From Escherichia phage T4, in sequence record OZ209023.1: a stretch of 64,000 nucleotides of DNA; one strand, written 5' to 3'. Every line of letters begins with the position of its first letter. Position 1 is the stretch's first letter. Positions 11,894 to 61,720 of this stretch are shown piece by piece. A model generated the notes under the pieces. The model saw only the letters and a program-made list of their open reading frames with translations, was not told the DNA's origin and did not search any database. The translations under genes and the position numbers were made by a program.

Positions 11894-12496
11894 TTATAGA
11901 TTAAATCCTTCAAAATCAAGAGTATAGATAGTGTATGTTGAACACTTTTTATACTCATATCTATCTGCAATTCTAAATACACTTCCAGCTGGTATCATTA
12001 CTTCTTGTTCATCTGAAACTAATTCCATATTACGATAACGATGACTATCCGGAAACTTAAAGTTTGGATTGTATTCTTTACAGCGTAGAGCTTTTATAGC
12101 ATACTCCTGGAAATTGAATACCATAGGAGCTTTGAATTCAAAAATAACTTGTGTGTTATACTCTAAACCAGAAGCAAAATGTAGAGCTATATTTTTATCA
12201 TATGAAGCTGATACGACTTTATCAAATGTAATAATATCAATTCCTTGATTTAATACTTGTTTAGTCTCAGCTGGAACACCTCTCCAAAGAGGTTTATCGT
12301 TTGGAACCAAACGAGATTTGATTATTTCATTTAACCAAGAATGGTCATCTGGTTTATTAGTAATACAATGAATTAAAAGTTCAATTTCAGATAAATTAAA
12401 CCCTTCAGAAAGTAATTCTTCACGAATAGAAGCACGCACCGATGCATCCATTGATTTTATTTTAAAATCTTTTAGTTGCATTACTGAGTATTTCAT
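11894..12496 (-). CDS. modA: ADP-ribosyltransferase ModA
   Basis: 200-aa ORF; R-S-E ADP-ribosyltransferase signature (LWRG ... EQEVMIPAG); paralogous to adjacent ModB. Confidence 0.75.
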   Translation of the reverse strand: MKYSVMQLKDFKIKSMDASVRASIREELLSEGFNLSEIELLIHCITNKPDDHSWLNEIIKSRLVPNDKPLWRGVPAETKQVLNQGIDIITFDKVVSASYDKNIALHFASGLEYNTQVIFEFKAPMVFNFQEYAIKALRCKEYNPNFKFPDSHRYRNMELVSDEQEVMIPAGSVFRIADRYEYKKCSTYTIYTLDFEGFNL

Positions 12497-13116
12497 TCAA
12501 CTACCTCAATATCATAAACTTTAAATGTTCCAAATGAATCGTGTAATTTTTCTTTTGAAATAGAAGTTATTTTATACTTTCCAATTGGAATCATCCATTC
12601 TTGTTCACGCACAATCATCATTAAGTTATCAGTACGCTCTGAATCTAATCCATCAGTATCTTCATACGTGTACTTAAACTCAGTATTAGGAGAAGAAAGT
12701 ATAATATCGCTGATATGGTCAGAATAATTAAAAGCTTTATCAGTTTTTAAACGAAGTATTGTTTCAGTGAAATATTCAGCATAAGAAAAAGAACACGCTG
12801 TATGCAAACTAGTAGTAAATGAATCTACCCTGTTCGTTGAAAACACTTCTCCAACTTGTAAATCTTTAATGAGTTCTTTTGTCGATTTTGATATACCACG
12901 ATATAATTGATAAGGCGATTTAGTTAAATGCTTTTTAATGATTTCATTTAAATGCTTATGAAGAGCTTCATTCTTTTTGGCTTCCATACATTGCCAAAGA
13001 ACAGACTGCTCAAAGTCAGTAAATTTTTCACAGACCTTTTTATACATATCATATTGAAAATCAACGCTTTCAGCTTTTATAGATAACTGTTCAACATCTG
13101 CAAGATTAATAATCAT
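12493..13116 (-). CDS. modB: ADP-ribosyltransferase ModB
   Basis: 207-aa ORF; LYRG ... EQEWMIPIG; 4-nt overlap with modA start. Confidence 0.75.
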   Translation of the reverse strand: MIINLADVEQLSIKAESVDFQYDMYKKVCEKFTDFEQSVLWQCMEAKKNEALHKHLNEIIKKHLTKSPYQLYRGISKSTKELIKDLQVGEVFSTNRVDSFTTSLHTACSFSYAEYFTETILRLKTDKAFNYSDHISDIILSSPNTEFKYTYEDTDGLDSERTDNLMMIVREQEWMIPIGKYKITSISKEKLHDSFGTFKVYDIEVVE

Positions 13117-19117: not shown

Positions 19118-19744
19118 TTAACCTCTATTCATAAAAGCATTAAAAATTTGGTCATCAATAGAAACATTTACTTTAGGCTGTTTTTCAGATGGCAATTCAT
19201 ATCCACATATTACAATTTTATGATCAATATCAAAATACACAGAAGCAATATGATTAATGATATTTTCAGTAAAGTCTAAATCAACATCAATATCTTTTTG
19301 ACCAAAGCCCAAAGGATAAATAATGCGAGTAATTCGATTATCTTTAACAAAGATTCCACCGACATACTCTGTGCTGCGTTTAAAGTCTACACGCCGACGA
19401 AATGAAAAATATTCAGGCTCTTTATGAGCTCGGCTCATAGGACACAACGAATAACTAGAATAAGAGATGTCAAATCCTACGCCTTCAATATGAACTAAAT
19501 TGTCATGATTAAACCAATTATAATCATATGCCAAGTCCATTAGATTGTCATATGTGAAAGGCACCGGATTAACATCATTGGTCACAAGCATATAATTAGC
19601 AACTGCTATAATTTCATTATTTTTAACGAATACAAACCGTGATTGATGCGAATGGCCTGGACCTGCGTTTTCACGATTAATGATATAACACTGGGCACCT
19701 TTATATTTGTACGTGTCTTTACACTTGTGCATTTGATAAAGCAT
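19118..19744 (-). CDS. hypothetical protein (61.1 position)
   Basis: 208-aa ORF. Confidence 0.55.
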   Translation of the reverse strand: MLYQMHKCKDTYKYKGAQCYIINRENAGPGHSHQSRFVFVKNNEIIAVANYMLVTNDVNPVPFTYDNLMDLAYDYNWFNHDNLVHIEGVGFDISYSSYSLCPMSRAHKEPEYFSFRRRVDFKRSTEYVGGIFVKDNRITRIIYPLGFGQKDIDVDLDFTENIINHIASVYFDIDHKIVICGYELPSEKQPKVNVSIDDQIFNAFMNRG

Positions 19745-36594: not shown

Positions 36595-36612
36595 AAAGGG
36601 CCGAAGCCCTTT
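36595..36612 (-). terminator. UUCG-loop hairpin overlapping stop of the alpha-gt remnant
   Basis: plus aaagggc-cgaa-gcccttt. Confidence 0.4.
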
Positions 36613-36748
36613 ATTTTGTAATAATGTCAAACTGTTCTTTAAAGCAGAAGCTTGAATCTTGATGCTGATACAAAAATTCATATGCTTTTTCTCGCTCACG
36701 GTCATAAAGAGCTCGGTCAGCTCGAGCCATAAAAATGCAAATACGCAT
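36611..36748 (-). pseudogene. agt: remnant of DNA alpha-glucosyltransferase gene: 45-codon in-frame fusion of extreme N- and C-terminal codons
   Basis: ORF MRICIFMAR-A-DRALYDREREKAYEFLYQHQDSSFCFKEQFDIITK with SD; T4 alpha-GT is about 400 aa and lies between 47 and 55; about 1.07 kb of coding sequence is absent. Confidence 0.65.
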
Positions 36749-59457: not shown

Positions 59458-59645
59458 AAGGAATTTATATAATCAATGAGTTCTTGTTCTTTATTATCGA
59501 ATTCTTTAGAAAGTTCTTCGTACTCGTTTGCGCTAAAAGGACCGCATTCATTACAAACTTTTTCCAATTCACTATTTTTATCCATAACTTCGTGGATAAG
59601 AGAAAAGAGTGTGTCTTTTTGTTCTTTGCTTAAACTCATAACCAT
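59454..59645 (-). CDS. hypothetical small acidic protein (paralogue of previous)
   Basis: 63-aa ORF, similar E-rich pattern. Confidence 0.45.
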   Translation of the reverse strand: MVMSLSKEQKDTLFSLIHEVMDKNSELEKVCNECGPFSANEYEELSKEFDNKEQELIDYINSL

Positions 59646-59863
59646 GTCACCTTTAAGCAGTATTCTTCTACATGCTGTTTACGACCTTTCTTATCAATAA
59701 AGGTATATTCAACGAATGTTCCAATGTAGTCTTTATCTACATCATGTGGACTATTAATTGGACATTTAGTGCGACAAATGCGTTCCCATTGACGAATAAT
59801 TACTGCCTTATTCTTTGGGTCATATGGATGTGGATAATGTATATTCATAATAATGGTTCCCAA
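59636..59863 (-). CDS. hypothetical small protein
   Basis: 75-aa ORF. Confidence 0.45.
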   Translation of the reverse strand: MGTIIMNIHYPHPYDPKNKAVIIRQWERICRTKCPINSPHDVDKDYIGTFVEYTFIDKKGRKQHVEEYCLKVTWL

Positions 59864-60312
59864 TCAACAATCACAATTTCTAATTTAGAGGAATATGTAT
59901 CTAAAATCCCCTCAATAATATCCCAGTTCCCTTTACCTATGCCTGCACCAATCCTAGGCATATAGATTGTAGGTTTAATCAGTTTATTTTCACCAAACTC
60001 ATTTAATTCTAACATACAATTCATTAAAGCGGAATACTCAAAATTTGGCCCTGGTTGAAATTGAGTATAAAGATTGAAGCAGTAAGCTTTATGAGTCCTA
60101 AAGTATTTTTCATAGACTGAGTAAGAACCGAGTTTAGTTACATCACCCCATTCAGTCTGTAATTTATCAGCTTCCAAAATTTTAGGGAAAGCTTTGGTTA
60201 ATTGACCCGCTACGCCTGAACCCATAGTATGAAAACAATTACATCCATGTGCAATATTTTTACCTTCAGCGAAAAGGGCGACAATATCGCCCTTGATATA
60301 TTTTACAATCAT
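59845..60312 (-). CDS. macro-domain protein (putative ADP-ribose binding/processing)
   Basis: 155-aa ORF; N-terminal KGDIVALFAEGKNIAHGCNCFHTMGSGVAGQL resembles macro-domain GDI...N/H...G.G.A signature. Confidence 0.55.
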   Translation of the reverse strand: MIVKYIKGDIVALFAEGKNIAHGCNCFHTMGSGVAGQLTKAFPKILEADKLQTEWGDVTKLGSYSVYEKYFRTHKAYCFNLYTQFQPGPNFEYSALMNCMLELNEFGENKLIKPTIYMPRIGAGIGKGNWDIIEGILDTYSSKLEIVIVDWEPLL

Positions 60313-60656
60313 CTAGTACTCAATCCTCGATTATAAGAATCTACCAAACGGTCAACCATTGAATGACAAGCGGCTTTATCTTTCTCCTCCGCAACTGAAC
60401 ATTCTAAGGTATTCCACTTTTTAGCATATCGTTTTAACAATGTATCGTTTTTGTATCTGCTTGATTTATCTCTTTCTCCGTCTTTATATGCATATATTAA
60501 TTTCTGTGCAAATTCAGCTTGGCATGCCTTATTTTTCCCACAATAATCTGCCGCAGTGCGGTTTACATATTCTCTAATTTCAGTATATGATGTATCTGCT
60601 GACGCAGAAGCAGAAAATGAAATTAATCCTATACATAAAACCAAAATTTTAGTCAT
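60309..60656 (-). CDS. secreted small protein (T4 vs position)
   Basis: 115-aa ORF with signal peptide MTKILVLCIGLISFSASASA. Confidence 0.5.
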   Translation of the reverse strand: MTKILVLCIGLISFSASASADTSYTEIREYVNRTAADYCGKNKACQAEFAQKLIYAYKDGERDKSSRYKNDTLLKRYAKKWNTLECSVAEEKDKAACHSMVDRLVDSYNRGLSTR

Positions 60657-61194
60657 TTACTATTTCCAAAAGTTTATTATTTTTAAGGTAATTAGCCTTT
60701 TCTAGGACTTCAGAAGCATATTTAGAACCTGCTTTAACATTCCATCCCGAATTATAAGAGGATATTGCTTTTCTTATATCGCCCTTATGTATATTTAACC
60801 AATAAGAAAGTTCAATGTACGCCCAGGAAGCTGAATTGGATCGTTTATTCAACATTCTTTTTATTTCAGCATCGGTCATATTATAACCAAGTTCCTTAAC
60901 TCTTGCTCGCATAGTAGGCAAATAATTTTGGAACATTCCGTAGGCGTGATGCTTTGGTTTAGATTTTAAATTAACTCCGCCAGAGCTTTCTTGCCATAAA
61001 ATGGCAGCCATTATATGACCTAATCCGCTCTTGTGGATATTTTTGTGTGTTTTATATTTTCCATCCTTAGAAAATTGTTCCCCGAATTGATACGCGTAAC
61101 GCATGTTATCGAGTTGGACATTACTGAAAGTATGCTCGGAGCTATGTGCCATCATTGAAATGGCCAATAGACCAGCGAGTAGTGCTTTTCTCAT
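60649..61194 (-). CDS. secreted protein with lytic-transglycosylase-like region
   Basis: 181-aa ORF; signal peptide; motif ILWQESSGG resembles SLT-domain catalytic region. Confidence 0.45.
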   Translation of the reverse strand: MRKALLAGLLAISMMAHSSEHTFSNVQLDNMRYAYQFGEQFSKDGKYKTHKNIHKSGLGHIMAAILWQESSGGVNLKSKPKHHAYGMFQNYLPTMRARVKELGYNMTDAEIKRMLNKRSNSASWAYIELSYWLNIHKGDIRKAISSYNSGWNVKAGSKYASEVLEKANYLKNNKLLEIVND

Positions 61195-61690: not shown

Positions 61691-61720
61691 ATTATACCAC
61701 AGTCAAGAGGAAAAGTAAAC
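61691..61720 (-). promoter_or_regulatory. early promoter (GTTTAC / TATAAT) upstream of regB
   Basis: plus gtaaac 61715-61720, attata 61691-61696. Confidence 0.5.

What the first reader, a model, noticed from the sequence alone, without database searches (positions are those of the whole stretch)
59845..60312. Macro-domain ORF in a genome that also encodes ADP-ribosyltransferases
The 155-aa ORF begins KGDIVALFAEGKNIAHGCNCFHTMGSGVAGQL, resembling the ADP-ribose-binding pocket of macro domains. The same window encodes the ModA/ModB ADP-ribosyltransferases (11894-13116). A phage macro domain could reverse or read ADP-ribosylation, or degrade ADP-ribose-derived defence signals.
Basis: inference. 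Interest (0 to 1): 0.5.

Follow-up and report, generated by a model that had tools for sequence, protein, structure and literature searches.

The report
T4 Tk.4 (AdfM) macrodomain, anti-DarTG2
The ORF is phage T4 gene tk.4, a real macrodomain that a 2025 preprint already showed protects T4 from the bacterial DarTG2 defence, which ADP-ribosylates DNA; nothing ties it to T4's own ModA/ModB enzymes.

Summary

It is not new. RefSeq already notes an "A1pp phosphatase motif", and a 2006 paper reported the domain. A November 2025 preprint (HIDEN-SEQ) found tk.4 as the only T4 gene needed on hosts carrying DarTG2. A clean knockout became sensitive, and the gene was renamed adfM.

The likely mechanism is removal of ADP-ribose that DarT2 puts on thymidine in single-stranded phage DNA. 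This is inferred, not shown.

My added detail: Tk.4 is not a DarG copy. It lacks DarG's C-terminal DarT-binding half. It also carries an invariant glutamine (Q84) where DarG and TARG1 have their catalytic lysine, as in Streptomyces SCO6735, a proven thymidine-ADP-ribose hydrolase.

The proposed link to ModA/ModB is unsupported. The macrodomain family occurs in 2,750 phage records and ModB homologues in 1,010, and many macrodomain carriers belong to phage groups absent from the listed ModB hosts.

Verdict: real and already known. Interest is low.

The parts
59845..60312 (-). tk.4 / adfM coding sequence: 155 aa, a stand-alone macrodomain.
60235..60249 (-). Codons H22-G-C-N25-C. These correspond to SCO6735 His24 and Asn27; N25 is the asparagine conserved in active macrodomains.
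   Evidence: In the 106-sequence alignment, H is 101/106 and N is 105/106. N is 141/141 among further cluster representatives. The same columns hold H and N in Streptomyces SCO6735-like proteins. SCO6735 N27S lowers activity.
60208..60225 (-). Codons M30-G-S-G33-V-A35, the first ADP-ribose-binding glycine loop. S32 sits where SCO6735 has Lys34.
   Evidence: G33 and A35 are invariant. The S32 column is K or R in 104 of 109 aligned SCO6735-like proteins. SCO6735 K34E nearly abolishes activity on DNA.
60061..60075 (-). Codons N80-L-Y-T-Q84. Q84 occupies the position of the catalytic lysine of TARG1 (K84) and DarG (K80), and of Gln85 in SCO6735.
   Evidence: The profile alignment puts nlYTQ on TARG1 yLITK. 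Q84 is invariant in 106/106 and 141/141. Gln fills the same column in 110 of 112 aligned SCO6735-like proteins. SCO6735 Q85A and Q85E are inactive.
59923..59958 (-). Codons P119-R-I-G-A-G124-I-G126-K-G-N-W130, the phosphate-binding loop. G124 corresponds to SCO6735 Gly128. G126 sits where TARG1 has its catalytic Asp125.
   Evidence: P119, I121, G122 and G124 are invariant. Alignment to 5e3b LPRIGCGLAGGTW and to TARG1 MPRIGCGLDRLQW. SCO6735 G128E lowers activity.
60309..60312 (-). ATGA overlap between the vs stop codon and the tk.4 start codon, an operon-like, translationally coupled arrangement.
   Evidence: Minus-strand sequence ...ACTAGATGATTG.... ORF coordinates.
59845..59848 (-). ATGA overlap between the tk.4 stop codon and the annotated tk.3 start codon.
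   Evidence: Minus-strand sequence ...CCATTATTATGAATA.... The RefSeq tk.3 start maps here.

Best explanation
This is phage T4 gene tk.4, recently renamed adfM. It encodes a 155-aa stand-alone macrodomain of the ALC1/TARG1-like class and serves as a counter-defence against the bacterial DarTG2 toxin-antitoxin system.

During infection, DarT2 ADP-ribosylates thymidine in TNTC motifs of single-stranded DNA, and such DNA cannot be replicated. Tk.4 most likely binds the ADP-ribose in its macrodomain cleft and hydrolyses the thymine-ribose bond, restoring usable phage DNA. In effect it is an orphan antitoxin carried by the phage.

The active site is the glutamine type known from Streptomyces SCO6735 (H22, N25, Q84, G124). 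It is not the lysine type of DarG and TARG1. Catalysis would therefore run through a positioned water molecule rather than a lysine nucleophile.

What is shown: the macrodomain fold, the class assignment and the residue pattern (my tools), and the DarTG2-specific requirement for tk.4 (preprint genetics). What is inferred: hydrolysis of thymidine-ADP-ribose by Tk.4 and the water-mediated chemistry.
For: - Identity: the window is 100% identical to T4, and the gene is tk.4.
- Defence-library models: PADLOC DarG E 1.3e-9 and NCBIfam antitoxin_DarG E 2.5e-7, both over the macrodomain part only.
- Genetics, from preprint 10.1101/2025.11.20.689424: tk.4 was the single significant transposon-sequencing hit on a DarTG2 host, and a clean knockout was sensitised to DarTG2. 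Independently, T4 lacking adfA and adfN stayed DarTG2-resistant, which predicted a further factor (PMC11825919).
- Active site: Q84 aligns with TARG1 K84 and is invariant in 247 homologues. SCO6735-like proteins have Gln, His and Asn in the same columns. SCO6735 cleaves thymidine-ADP-ribose on DNA, protects against DarT, and needs Gln85 (PMC9411070).
- Consistency check: T5, which the preprint uses as a DarTG2-sensitive control, has no member of this family. Its best six-frame hit is 9.6 bits, against 212 bits for tk.4.
Against: - No biochemical assay of Tk.4 on ADP-ribosylated DNA was found. The preprint itself says removal of ADP-ribose "seems likely".
- The genetic evidence is one not-yet-peer-reviewed preprint.
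- Tk.4 lacks the counterparts of SCO6735 Lys34 and Lys89 (it has S32 and G88). These help position DNA, and K34E nearly abolishes SCO6735 activity on DNA.
- Tk.4 is mildly acidic overall (pI 5.9), which does not suggest DNA binding.
- Catalytically dead SCO6735, DarG and TARG1 can still inhibit DarT in vitro, so protection need not be purely enzymatic.
Confidence: 0.78

Rival explanations
1. Tk.4 protects against DarTG2 mainly without catalysis. It would bind and inhibit DarT2, or bind and shield ADP-ribosylated sites, rather than turn over the modification.
For: Catalytically inactive SCO6735 (Q85A), DarG (K80A) and TARG1 (K84A) all reduce DarT activity in vitro, SCO6735 most strongly (PMC9411070). 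Tk.4 lacks the lysines that position DNA in SCO6735.
Against: Tk.4 has no counterpart of DarG's C-terminal DarT-binding domain: it covers only positions 2-146 of the 329- and 338-position DarG models. Every residue needed for catalysis in SCO6735 (His, Asn, Gln, Gly) is invariant or nearly so across 247 diverse homologues, which suggests selection for enzymatic activity. The PhiKZ macrodomain AdfM removes ADP-ribose enzymatically (PMC13309987).
Confidence: 0.1
2. One reading: Tk.4 reads or erases ADP-ribose marks, or RNA chains, laid down by T4's own transferases Alt, ModA and ModB, tuning their effect on host proteins.
For: ModA and ModB are in the same genome and window. TARG1-class enzymes do act on some protein-linked ADP-ribose (SCO6735 on auto-modified PARP1). 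An arginine-specific macrodomain, MavL, is cited in the reference list of PMC13036486.
Against: The genes are about 47 kb apart, with no operon link. The macrodomain family is in 2,750 phage records and ModB homologues in 1,010. The macrodomain is common in Pseudomonas, Vibrio, Acinetobacter and Aeromonas phages, genera not among the ten most frequent ModB hosts listed. The preprint presents anti-defence genes as dispensable under standard conditions, and tk.4 read counts fell specifically in the presence of DarTG2. No TARG1-class enzyme was seen to cleave arginine-linked ADP-ribose in the papers read.
Confidence: 0.05
3. Tk.4 is a small-molecule enzyme. It would be an ADP-ribose-1''-phosphate phosphatase or O-acetyl-ADP-ribose deacetylase (the historical "A1pp phosphatase" label), or a degrader of ADP-ribose-derived immune signals.
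Against: The phosphatase label is a transfer from a domain name, not a test. This role does not explain the DarTG2-specific phenotype, because DarT2 modifies DNA. No signalling-based defence phenotype is reported for tk.4.
Confidence: 0.05

Closest known systems
T4 Tk.4 = AdfM (anti-DarT factor Macrodomain), HIDEN-SEQ preprint, bioRxiv 10.1101/2025.11.20.689424
   Same: It is the same gene. The window protein is identical to NP_049723.1. The preprint reports the macrodomain fold, its similarity to DarG, and the DarTG2-specific requirement.
   Different: Nothing differs in sequence. The preprint compares it only with M. tuberculosis DarG. It does not mention the glutamine-for-lysine active site or the missing DarT-binding domain in the passages I read.
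Streptomyces coelicolor SCO6735 (PDB 5e3b) and Bacteroides BT1257 (PDB 2fg1/2afc): stand-alone TARG1-like macrodomains with Gln at the catalytic position
   Different: Only about 25-29% identical. The local motif is LYTQ rather than M[IV]GQ. Tk.4 has Ser32 and Gly88 where SCO6735 has the DNA-positioning Lys34 and Lys89. Tk.4 is phage-encoded. Its activity has not been assayed.
DarG, the macrodomain antitoxin of DarTG2 (PDB 5m31, 5m3i, 7omu)
   Different: Tk.4 is 155 aa and covers only about the first 146 of roughly 330-340 model positions, so it has no DarT-binding domain. Its NCBIfam score is 30.3 bits against a cut-off of 250. It has Gln84 in place of the catalytic Lys80. It is not next to a darT gene.
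Human TARG1/OARD1 (PDB 4j5r)
   Same: Best Foldseek match, E 2.3e-10. Profile E 4e-16. TARG1 also removes thymine- and uracil-linked ADP-ribose.
   Different: The TARG1 catalytic pair Lys84/Asp125 is Gln84/Gly126 in Tk.4.
PhiKZ gp104, also named AdfM (Cell Rep 2026, PMC13309987)
   Same: A phage-encoded stand-alone macrodomain that counters DarTG2. For gp104, removal of ADP-ribose from DNA was shown in vitro.
   Different: A separate lineage. BLASTP finds only a 23-residue match to Tk.4, and gp104 scores 37 bits against the Tk.4 family profile, compared with 62 for TARG1. It carries an FPTK motif like the Thr-Lys of DarG and TARG1, although my profile alignment does not place that lysine exactly on Q84. 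It is imported into the phage nucleus, which T4 does not have.
T4 AdfN (gp30.3, NADAR domain) and AdfA (gp61.2)
   Same: These are other T4 anti-DarT factors. AdfN is likewise an orphan antitoxin-like ADP-ribosyl glycohydrolase (PMC11825919).
   Different: AdfN has a different fold and is specific for guanine marks made by DarT1. Neither AdfN nor AdfA counters DarTG2.

Membership tests
Macro domain (Pfam PF01661) | Score above Pfam's curated cut-off | tested here: met
   27.7 bits against a cut-off of 22, covering 2-113 of 118 profile positions.
Macro domain (Pfam PF01661) | Three-layer alpha/beta/alpha macro fold | tested here: met
Macro domain (Pfam PF01661) | Binds ADP-ribose | not testable with these tools
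   Only the conserved glycine loops (M30-G-x-G33-x-A35 and I121-G-x-G124) and N25 are seen. This needs a binding assay.
ALC1/TARG1-like macrodomain class | Closest structural neighbours are TARG1, DarG, Poa1p and BT1257 rather than MacroD, PARG or viral types | tested here: met
DarG antitoxin (NCBIfam NF048014 equivalog) | Full-length match above the curated cut-off, including the C-terminal DarT-binding domain | tested here: not met
   30.3 bits against a cut-off of 250. Only model positions 2-146 of 338 are covered. PADLOC DarG is covered at 2-145 of 329.
DarG antitoxin (NCBIfam NF048014 equivalog) | Catalytic lysine (Lys80 in T. aquaticus DarG, equivalent to TARG1 Lys84) | tested here: not met
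   Gln84 occupies that column. It is invariant in 247 homologues. The equivalence of K80, K84 and Q85 is stated in PMC9411070.
DarG antitoxin (NCBIfam NF048014 equivalog) | Encoded next to a darT toxin gene | tested here: not met
   The neighbours are vs and tk.3.
SCO6735/BT1257-type (Gln-type) thymidine-ADP-ribose hydrolases | Gln at the catalytic position, with the conserved His, Asn and loop Gly | tested here: met
   H22, N25, Q84 and G124 align with H24, N27, Q85 and G128.
SCO6735/BT1257-type (Gln-type) thymidine-ADP-ribose hydrolases | DNA-positioning lysines Lys34 and Lys89 | tested here: not met
   Tk.4 has Ser32 and Gly88 in those columns. Its family has A or S at position 32 and G at position 88.
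SCO6735/BT1257-type (Gln-type) thymidine-ADP-ribose hydrolases | Hydrolyses thymidine-linked ADP-ribose on single-stranded DNA | not testable with these tools
   No assay of Tk.4 was found in the literature searched.
AdfM of phage T4 (tk.4) | Sequence identity with T4 Tk.4 and position between vs and tk.3 | tested here: met
   Identical to NP_049723.1. The synteny is shown.
AdfM of phage T4 (tk.4) | Needed for growth on DarTG2-expressing hosts | not testable with these tools
   Reported in the preprint. Consistent with this, DarTG2-sensitive T5 lacks the family.

The most novel reading that the evidence does not exclude
Tk.4 may do more than undo DarT2 marks on DNA. As a glutamine-type TARG1-like hydrolase made during infection, it could also act on RNA (uracil-linked ADP-ribose, which SCO6735 and TARG1 cleave) or on products of T4's own transferases, including ModB's RNA-protein conjugates. 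That would link the phage's offensive and defensive ADP-ribosylation chemistry. My evidence does not exclude this, and nothing positively supports it.
Probability: 0.08. Interest if true: 0.6.

Novelty: already known. Interest (0 to 1): 0.15.

Why it matters
The finding correctly spots a macrodomain from raw sequence. However, both the domain assignment (RefSeq note; Virol J 2006) and the biological role (anti-DarTG2, 2025 preprint) are already on record, so it opens no new question by itself.

What remains useful is mechanistic. T4's factor is a glutamine-type, stand-alone enzyme closer to SCO6735 and BT1257 than to DarG, while PhiKZ's factor of the same name belongs to a different lineage. 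This suggests phages recruited macrodomains against DarT2 at least twice.

The Tk.4 family is also very large: 19,027 clusters at 50% identity in metagenomes and 2,750 phage records. Countering DNA ADP-ribosylation may therefore be a common phage need.

Tried and rejected
- Single-sequence AlphaFold gave pLDDT 37.8 and was unusable. Only the alignment-based model was used.
- Pairwise BLASTP of Tk.4 against TARG1 misaligned the central strand. I relied on profile alignments instead.
- The sigma-70 promoter scan found 20 sites against 19.4 expected, so it is uninformative. No MotA-box middle-promoter pattern lies on the minus strand between 58.3 and 64 kb. Timing of expression could therefore not be derived. 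Co-transcription with vs.1 and vs from a promoter upstream (for example 61719..61691) is only an inference.
- I could not print a direct alignment to PDB 5e3b across Q84, because only the C-terminal loop aligned by phmmer. I got round this by fetching Streptomyces SCO6735-like genes with a DNA pattern scan and aligning them to the family profile.
- Homologues labelled as bacterial genome bins (P0072, P0118) turned out to lie on T4-like phage contigs, so they say nothing about a bacterial origin.
- The plasmid collection holds only 27 weak matches.
- T5 gene T5.105, annotated "Sir2", was checked as a possible hidden macrodomain. It does not match the family profile.

Full report
**Observation**

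The ORF is real. It lies at 59845-60312 on the minus strand and encodes 155 aa beginning MIVKYIKGDIVALF....

The window is phage T4: 59000-61200 is 100% identical to several T4 records. The protein is identical to NP_049723.1.

**Is it a macrodomain?**

Yes, by every test I could run.
- Pfam Macro scores 27.7 bits against a cut-off of 22.
- PHROG 335 matches at E 1e-65.
- Single-sequence search of solved structures finds BT1257 (E 1e-9), Poa1p, SCO6735, DarG and TARG1.
- A profile of 106 homologues raises these to 1.8e-19 (BT1257), 4e-16 (TARG1), 3.6e-15 (SCO6735), 3e-14 (Poa1p) and 5e-14 (M. tuberculosis DarG).
- Single-sequence AlphaFold failed (pLDDT 37.8), but the alignment-based model is confident (pLDDT 96.1, pTM 0.91).
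- Foldseek ranks TARG1, Poa1p, BT1257 and DarG first.

Tk.4 therefore belongs to the ALC1/TARG1-like class.

**What is already known**

- A 2006 comparative paper reported the A1pp domain in tk.4 orthologues (PMC1524935).
- A November 2025 preprint (10.1101/2025.11.20.689424) used transposon sequencing in T4. tk.4 was the single significant hit on E. coli expressing DarTG2. A clean knockout became DarTG2-sensitive. The predicted structure aligned with M. tuberculosis DarG, and the gene was renamed adfM. The authors say enzymatic removal of ADP-ribose from DNA "seems likely".
- This fits an earlier result: T4 lacking both AdfA and AdfN remained DarTG2-resistant, which implied a further factor (PMC11825919).
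- A separate 2026 paper gave the same name, AdfM, to PhiKZ gp104 and showed that it removes DarT2-made ADP-ribose from DNA in vitro (PMC13309987).

**Tk.4 is not a DarG copy**

Tk.4 matches only the macrodomain part of the DarG models: positions 2-145 of 329 in PADLOC and 2-146 of 338 in NCBIfam. The NCBIfam score is 30.3 bits against a cut-off of 250. It therefore has no DarT-binding domain, and it has no darT neighbour.

The profile alignment puts Tk.4 N-L-Y-T-Q84 on TARG1 Y-L-I-T-K84, and Tk.4 G126 on TARG1 D125.

Q84 is invariant in the 106-sequence alignment. It is also invariant in 141 further cluster representatives, as is N25.

PMC9411070 states that Streptomyces SCO6735 has Gln85 at the position of DarG Lys80 and TARG1 Lys84. 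In that paper Q85A and Q85E are inactive, N27S and G128E reduce activity, and the enzyme cleaves thymidine-linked ADP-ribose on DNA and protects against DarT. The authors propose a water-mediated mechanism.

To tie Tk.4 to that enzyme directly, I fetched 120 loci with a DNA pattern for PRIGCGLAGGTW, most of them Streptomyces SCO6735-like genes. Aligned to the Tk.4 family profile, they carry Gln in the Q84 column (110 of 112 aligned), plus His and Asn in the H22 and N25 columns. The residue spacing reproduces the paper's H24/N27/K34/Q85 numbering. Tk.4 G124 corresponds to SCO6735 G128.

Two differences remain. SCO6735 Lys34 and Lys89 help position DNA, and K34E nearly abolishes its activity on DNA. 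In Tk.4 these are Ser32 and Gly88. Tk.4 is also mildly acidic, with pI 5.9.

PhiKZ gp104 is only distantly related. BLASTP finds a 23-residue match, and gp104 scores 37 bits against the Tk.4 family profile. It has an FPTK motif resembling the Thr-Lys of DarG and TARG1. The two proteins called AdfM look like separate recruitments, although my alignment of that lysine is ambiguous.

**Context and distribution**

The tk.4 start overlaps the vs stop (ATGA, 60309-60312). Its stop overlaps the tk.3 start (ATGA, 59845-59848). This points to co-expression within the leftward vs.1-vs-tk.4-tk.3 run. Promoter scans were uninformative.

Distribution of the family:

| Search | Result |
|---|---|
| Clusters at 50% identity, E at or below 1e-3 | 19,027 |
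| Clusters at 50% identity, E at or below 1e-30 | 1,353 |
| Further representatives among the best 150 hits | 119 of 141 are 200 aa or shorter |
| Phage records with a Tk.4-family match (tblastn) | 2,750 |
| Phage records with a ModB-family match (tblastn) | 1,010 |

The 2,750 phage records include Pseudomonas (184), Vibrio (129), Acinetobacter (92) and Aeromonas (86) phages, and phages of about 88-137 kb such as wV8 and slur16. Among the ten most frequent host genera listed for ModB homologues, all are enterobacterial and none is one of those four. The macrodomain is thus not tied to ModA/ModB.

T5, the DarTG2-sensitive control in the preprint, has no family member. Its best six-frame hit is 9.6 bits, against 212 bits for tk.4.

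**Mechanism and rivals**

Best explanation (confidence about 0.78): Tk.4 is an orphan, antitoxin-like ADP-ribosyl glycohydrolase that strips DarT2's thymidine marks from phage single-stranded DNA, using a Gln-type, SCO6735-like active site.

Rivals:
- Mainly non-catalytic inhibition of DarT2 (about 0.1). Dead SCO6735, DarG and TARG1 inhibit DarT in vitro, but the invariant catalytic residues argue for enzyme activity.
- Erasing marks made by T4's own Alt, ModA or ModB (about 0.05). It has no genetic, positional or distributional support.
- A small-molecule phosphatase, deacetylase or signal degrader (about 0.05). The "phosphatase" label is only a transferred domain name.

**Verdict**

The feature is already known, so interest is low.

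The only modest addition is that T4 AdfM is glutamine-type and not a DarG orthologue. This bears on how it works and where it came from, and it gives clear mutants (Q84A, N25A) for the missing biochemistry.

Noticed in passing
window 36720/36721 (remnant ORF 36611-36748, - strand): The window lacks 1,065 bp present in RefSeq T4 (NC_000866 36734-37798), which is nearly all of the alpha-glucosyltransferase gene a-gt. An in-frame 45-aa remnant is left. This looks like an engineered or selected a-gt deletion strain of T4.
   Followed up: partly
window about 19118-19744, - strand: Gene 61.2 (NC_000866 19132-19758) lies in the same window. It is T4's AdfA, another anti-DarT factor according to PMC11825919. 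The window therefore holds two of T4's three known anti-DarT genes.
   Followed up: partly
window 60309-60656 (vs) and 60649-61194 (vs.1), - strand: Vs, the "valyl-tRNA synthetase modifier", begins MTKILVLCIGLISFSASASA, which looks like a secretion signal peptide and is odd for a partner of a cytoplasmic enzyme. Vs.1 also has a signal-like N-terminus, and records annotate it as an SLT transglycosylase. The preprint reports vs as the gene most depleted in minimal medium.
   Followed up: no
L005-L007 (phage T5, NC_005859): T5 has no Tk.4-family macrodomain in any of the six reading frames. It does carry two genes annotated Sir2 (T5.102 and T5.105). T5.105 does not match the macrodomain profile.
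   Followed up: yes
L003 41-3739 and L004 6001-8941: Contigs labelled as Bacilli and Culicoidibacterales genome bins are T4-like phage contigs. In these the macrodomain gene sits beside RNA ligase 1, a DUF4326 gene and a Dda-like helicase (L003), or near an SLT gene and polynucleotide kinase (L004). The neighbourhood therefore varies between T4-like phages.
   Followed up: no
window 60205-60207 (codon 36 of tk.4): Laboratory T4 sublines differ at Tk.4 residue 36 (Ser36Gly, PMC8573959). The window and RefSeq both have Gly36, the commonest residue in the family. One sequenced T4 stock (OL964745) has two features annotated "macro domain-containing protein" under the 2.2-kb match, so tk.4 may be split there.
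   Followed up: no
window 59636-59863, - strand (tk.3): The mechanical ORF list starts tk.3 at a TTG (59863, 75 aa). RefSeq starts it at the ATG at 59848 (70 aa), which overlaps the tk.4 stop codon. RefSeq also labels the tk.3 product "Tk.2".
   Followed up: no
literature (PMC13309987 and bioRxiv 10.1101/2025.11.20.689424): Two only distantly related phage macrodomains, T4 Tk.4 and PhiKZ gp104, were independently given the same name, AdfM. The 2026 paper states that no macrodomain anti-DarT factor had been reported.
   Followed up: partly
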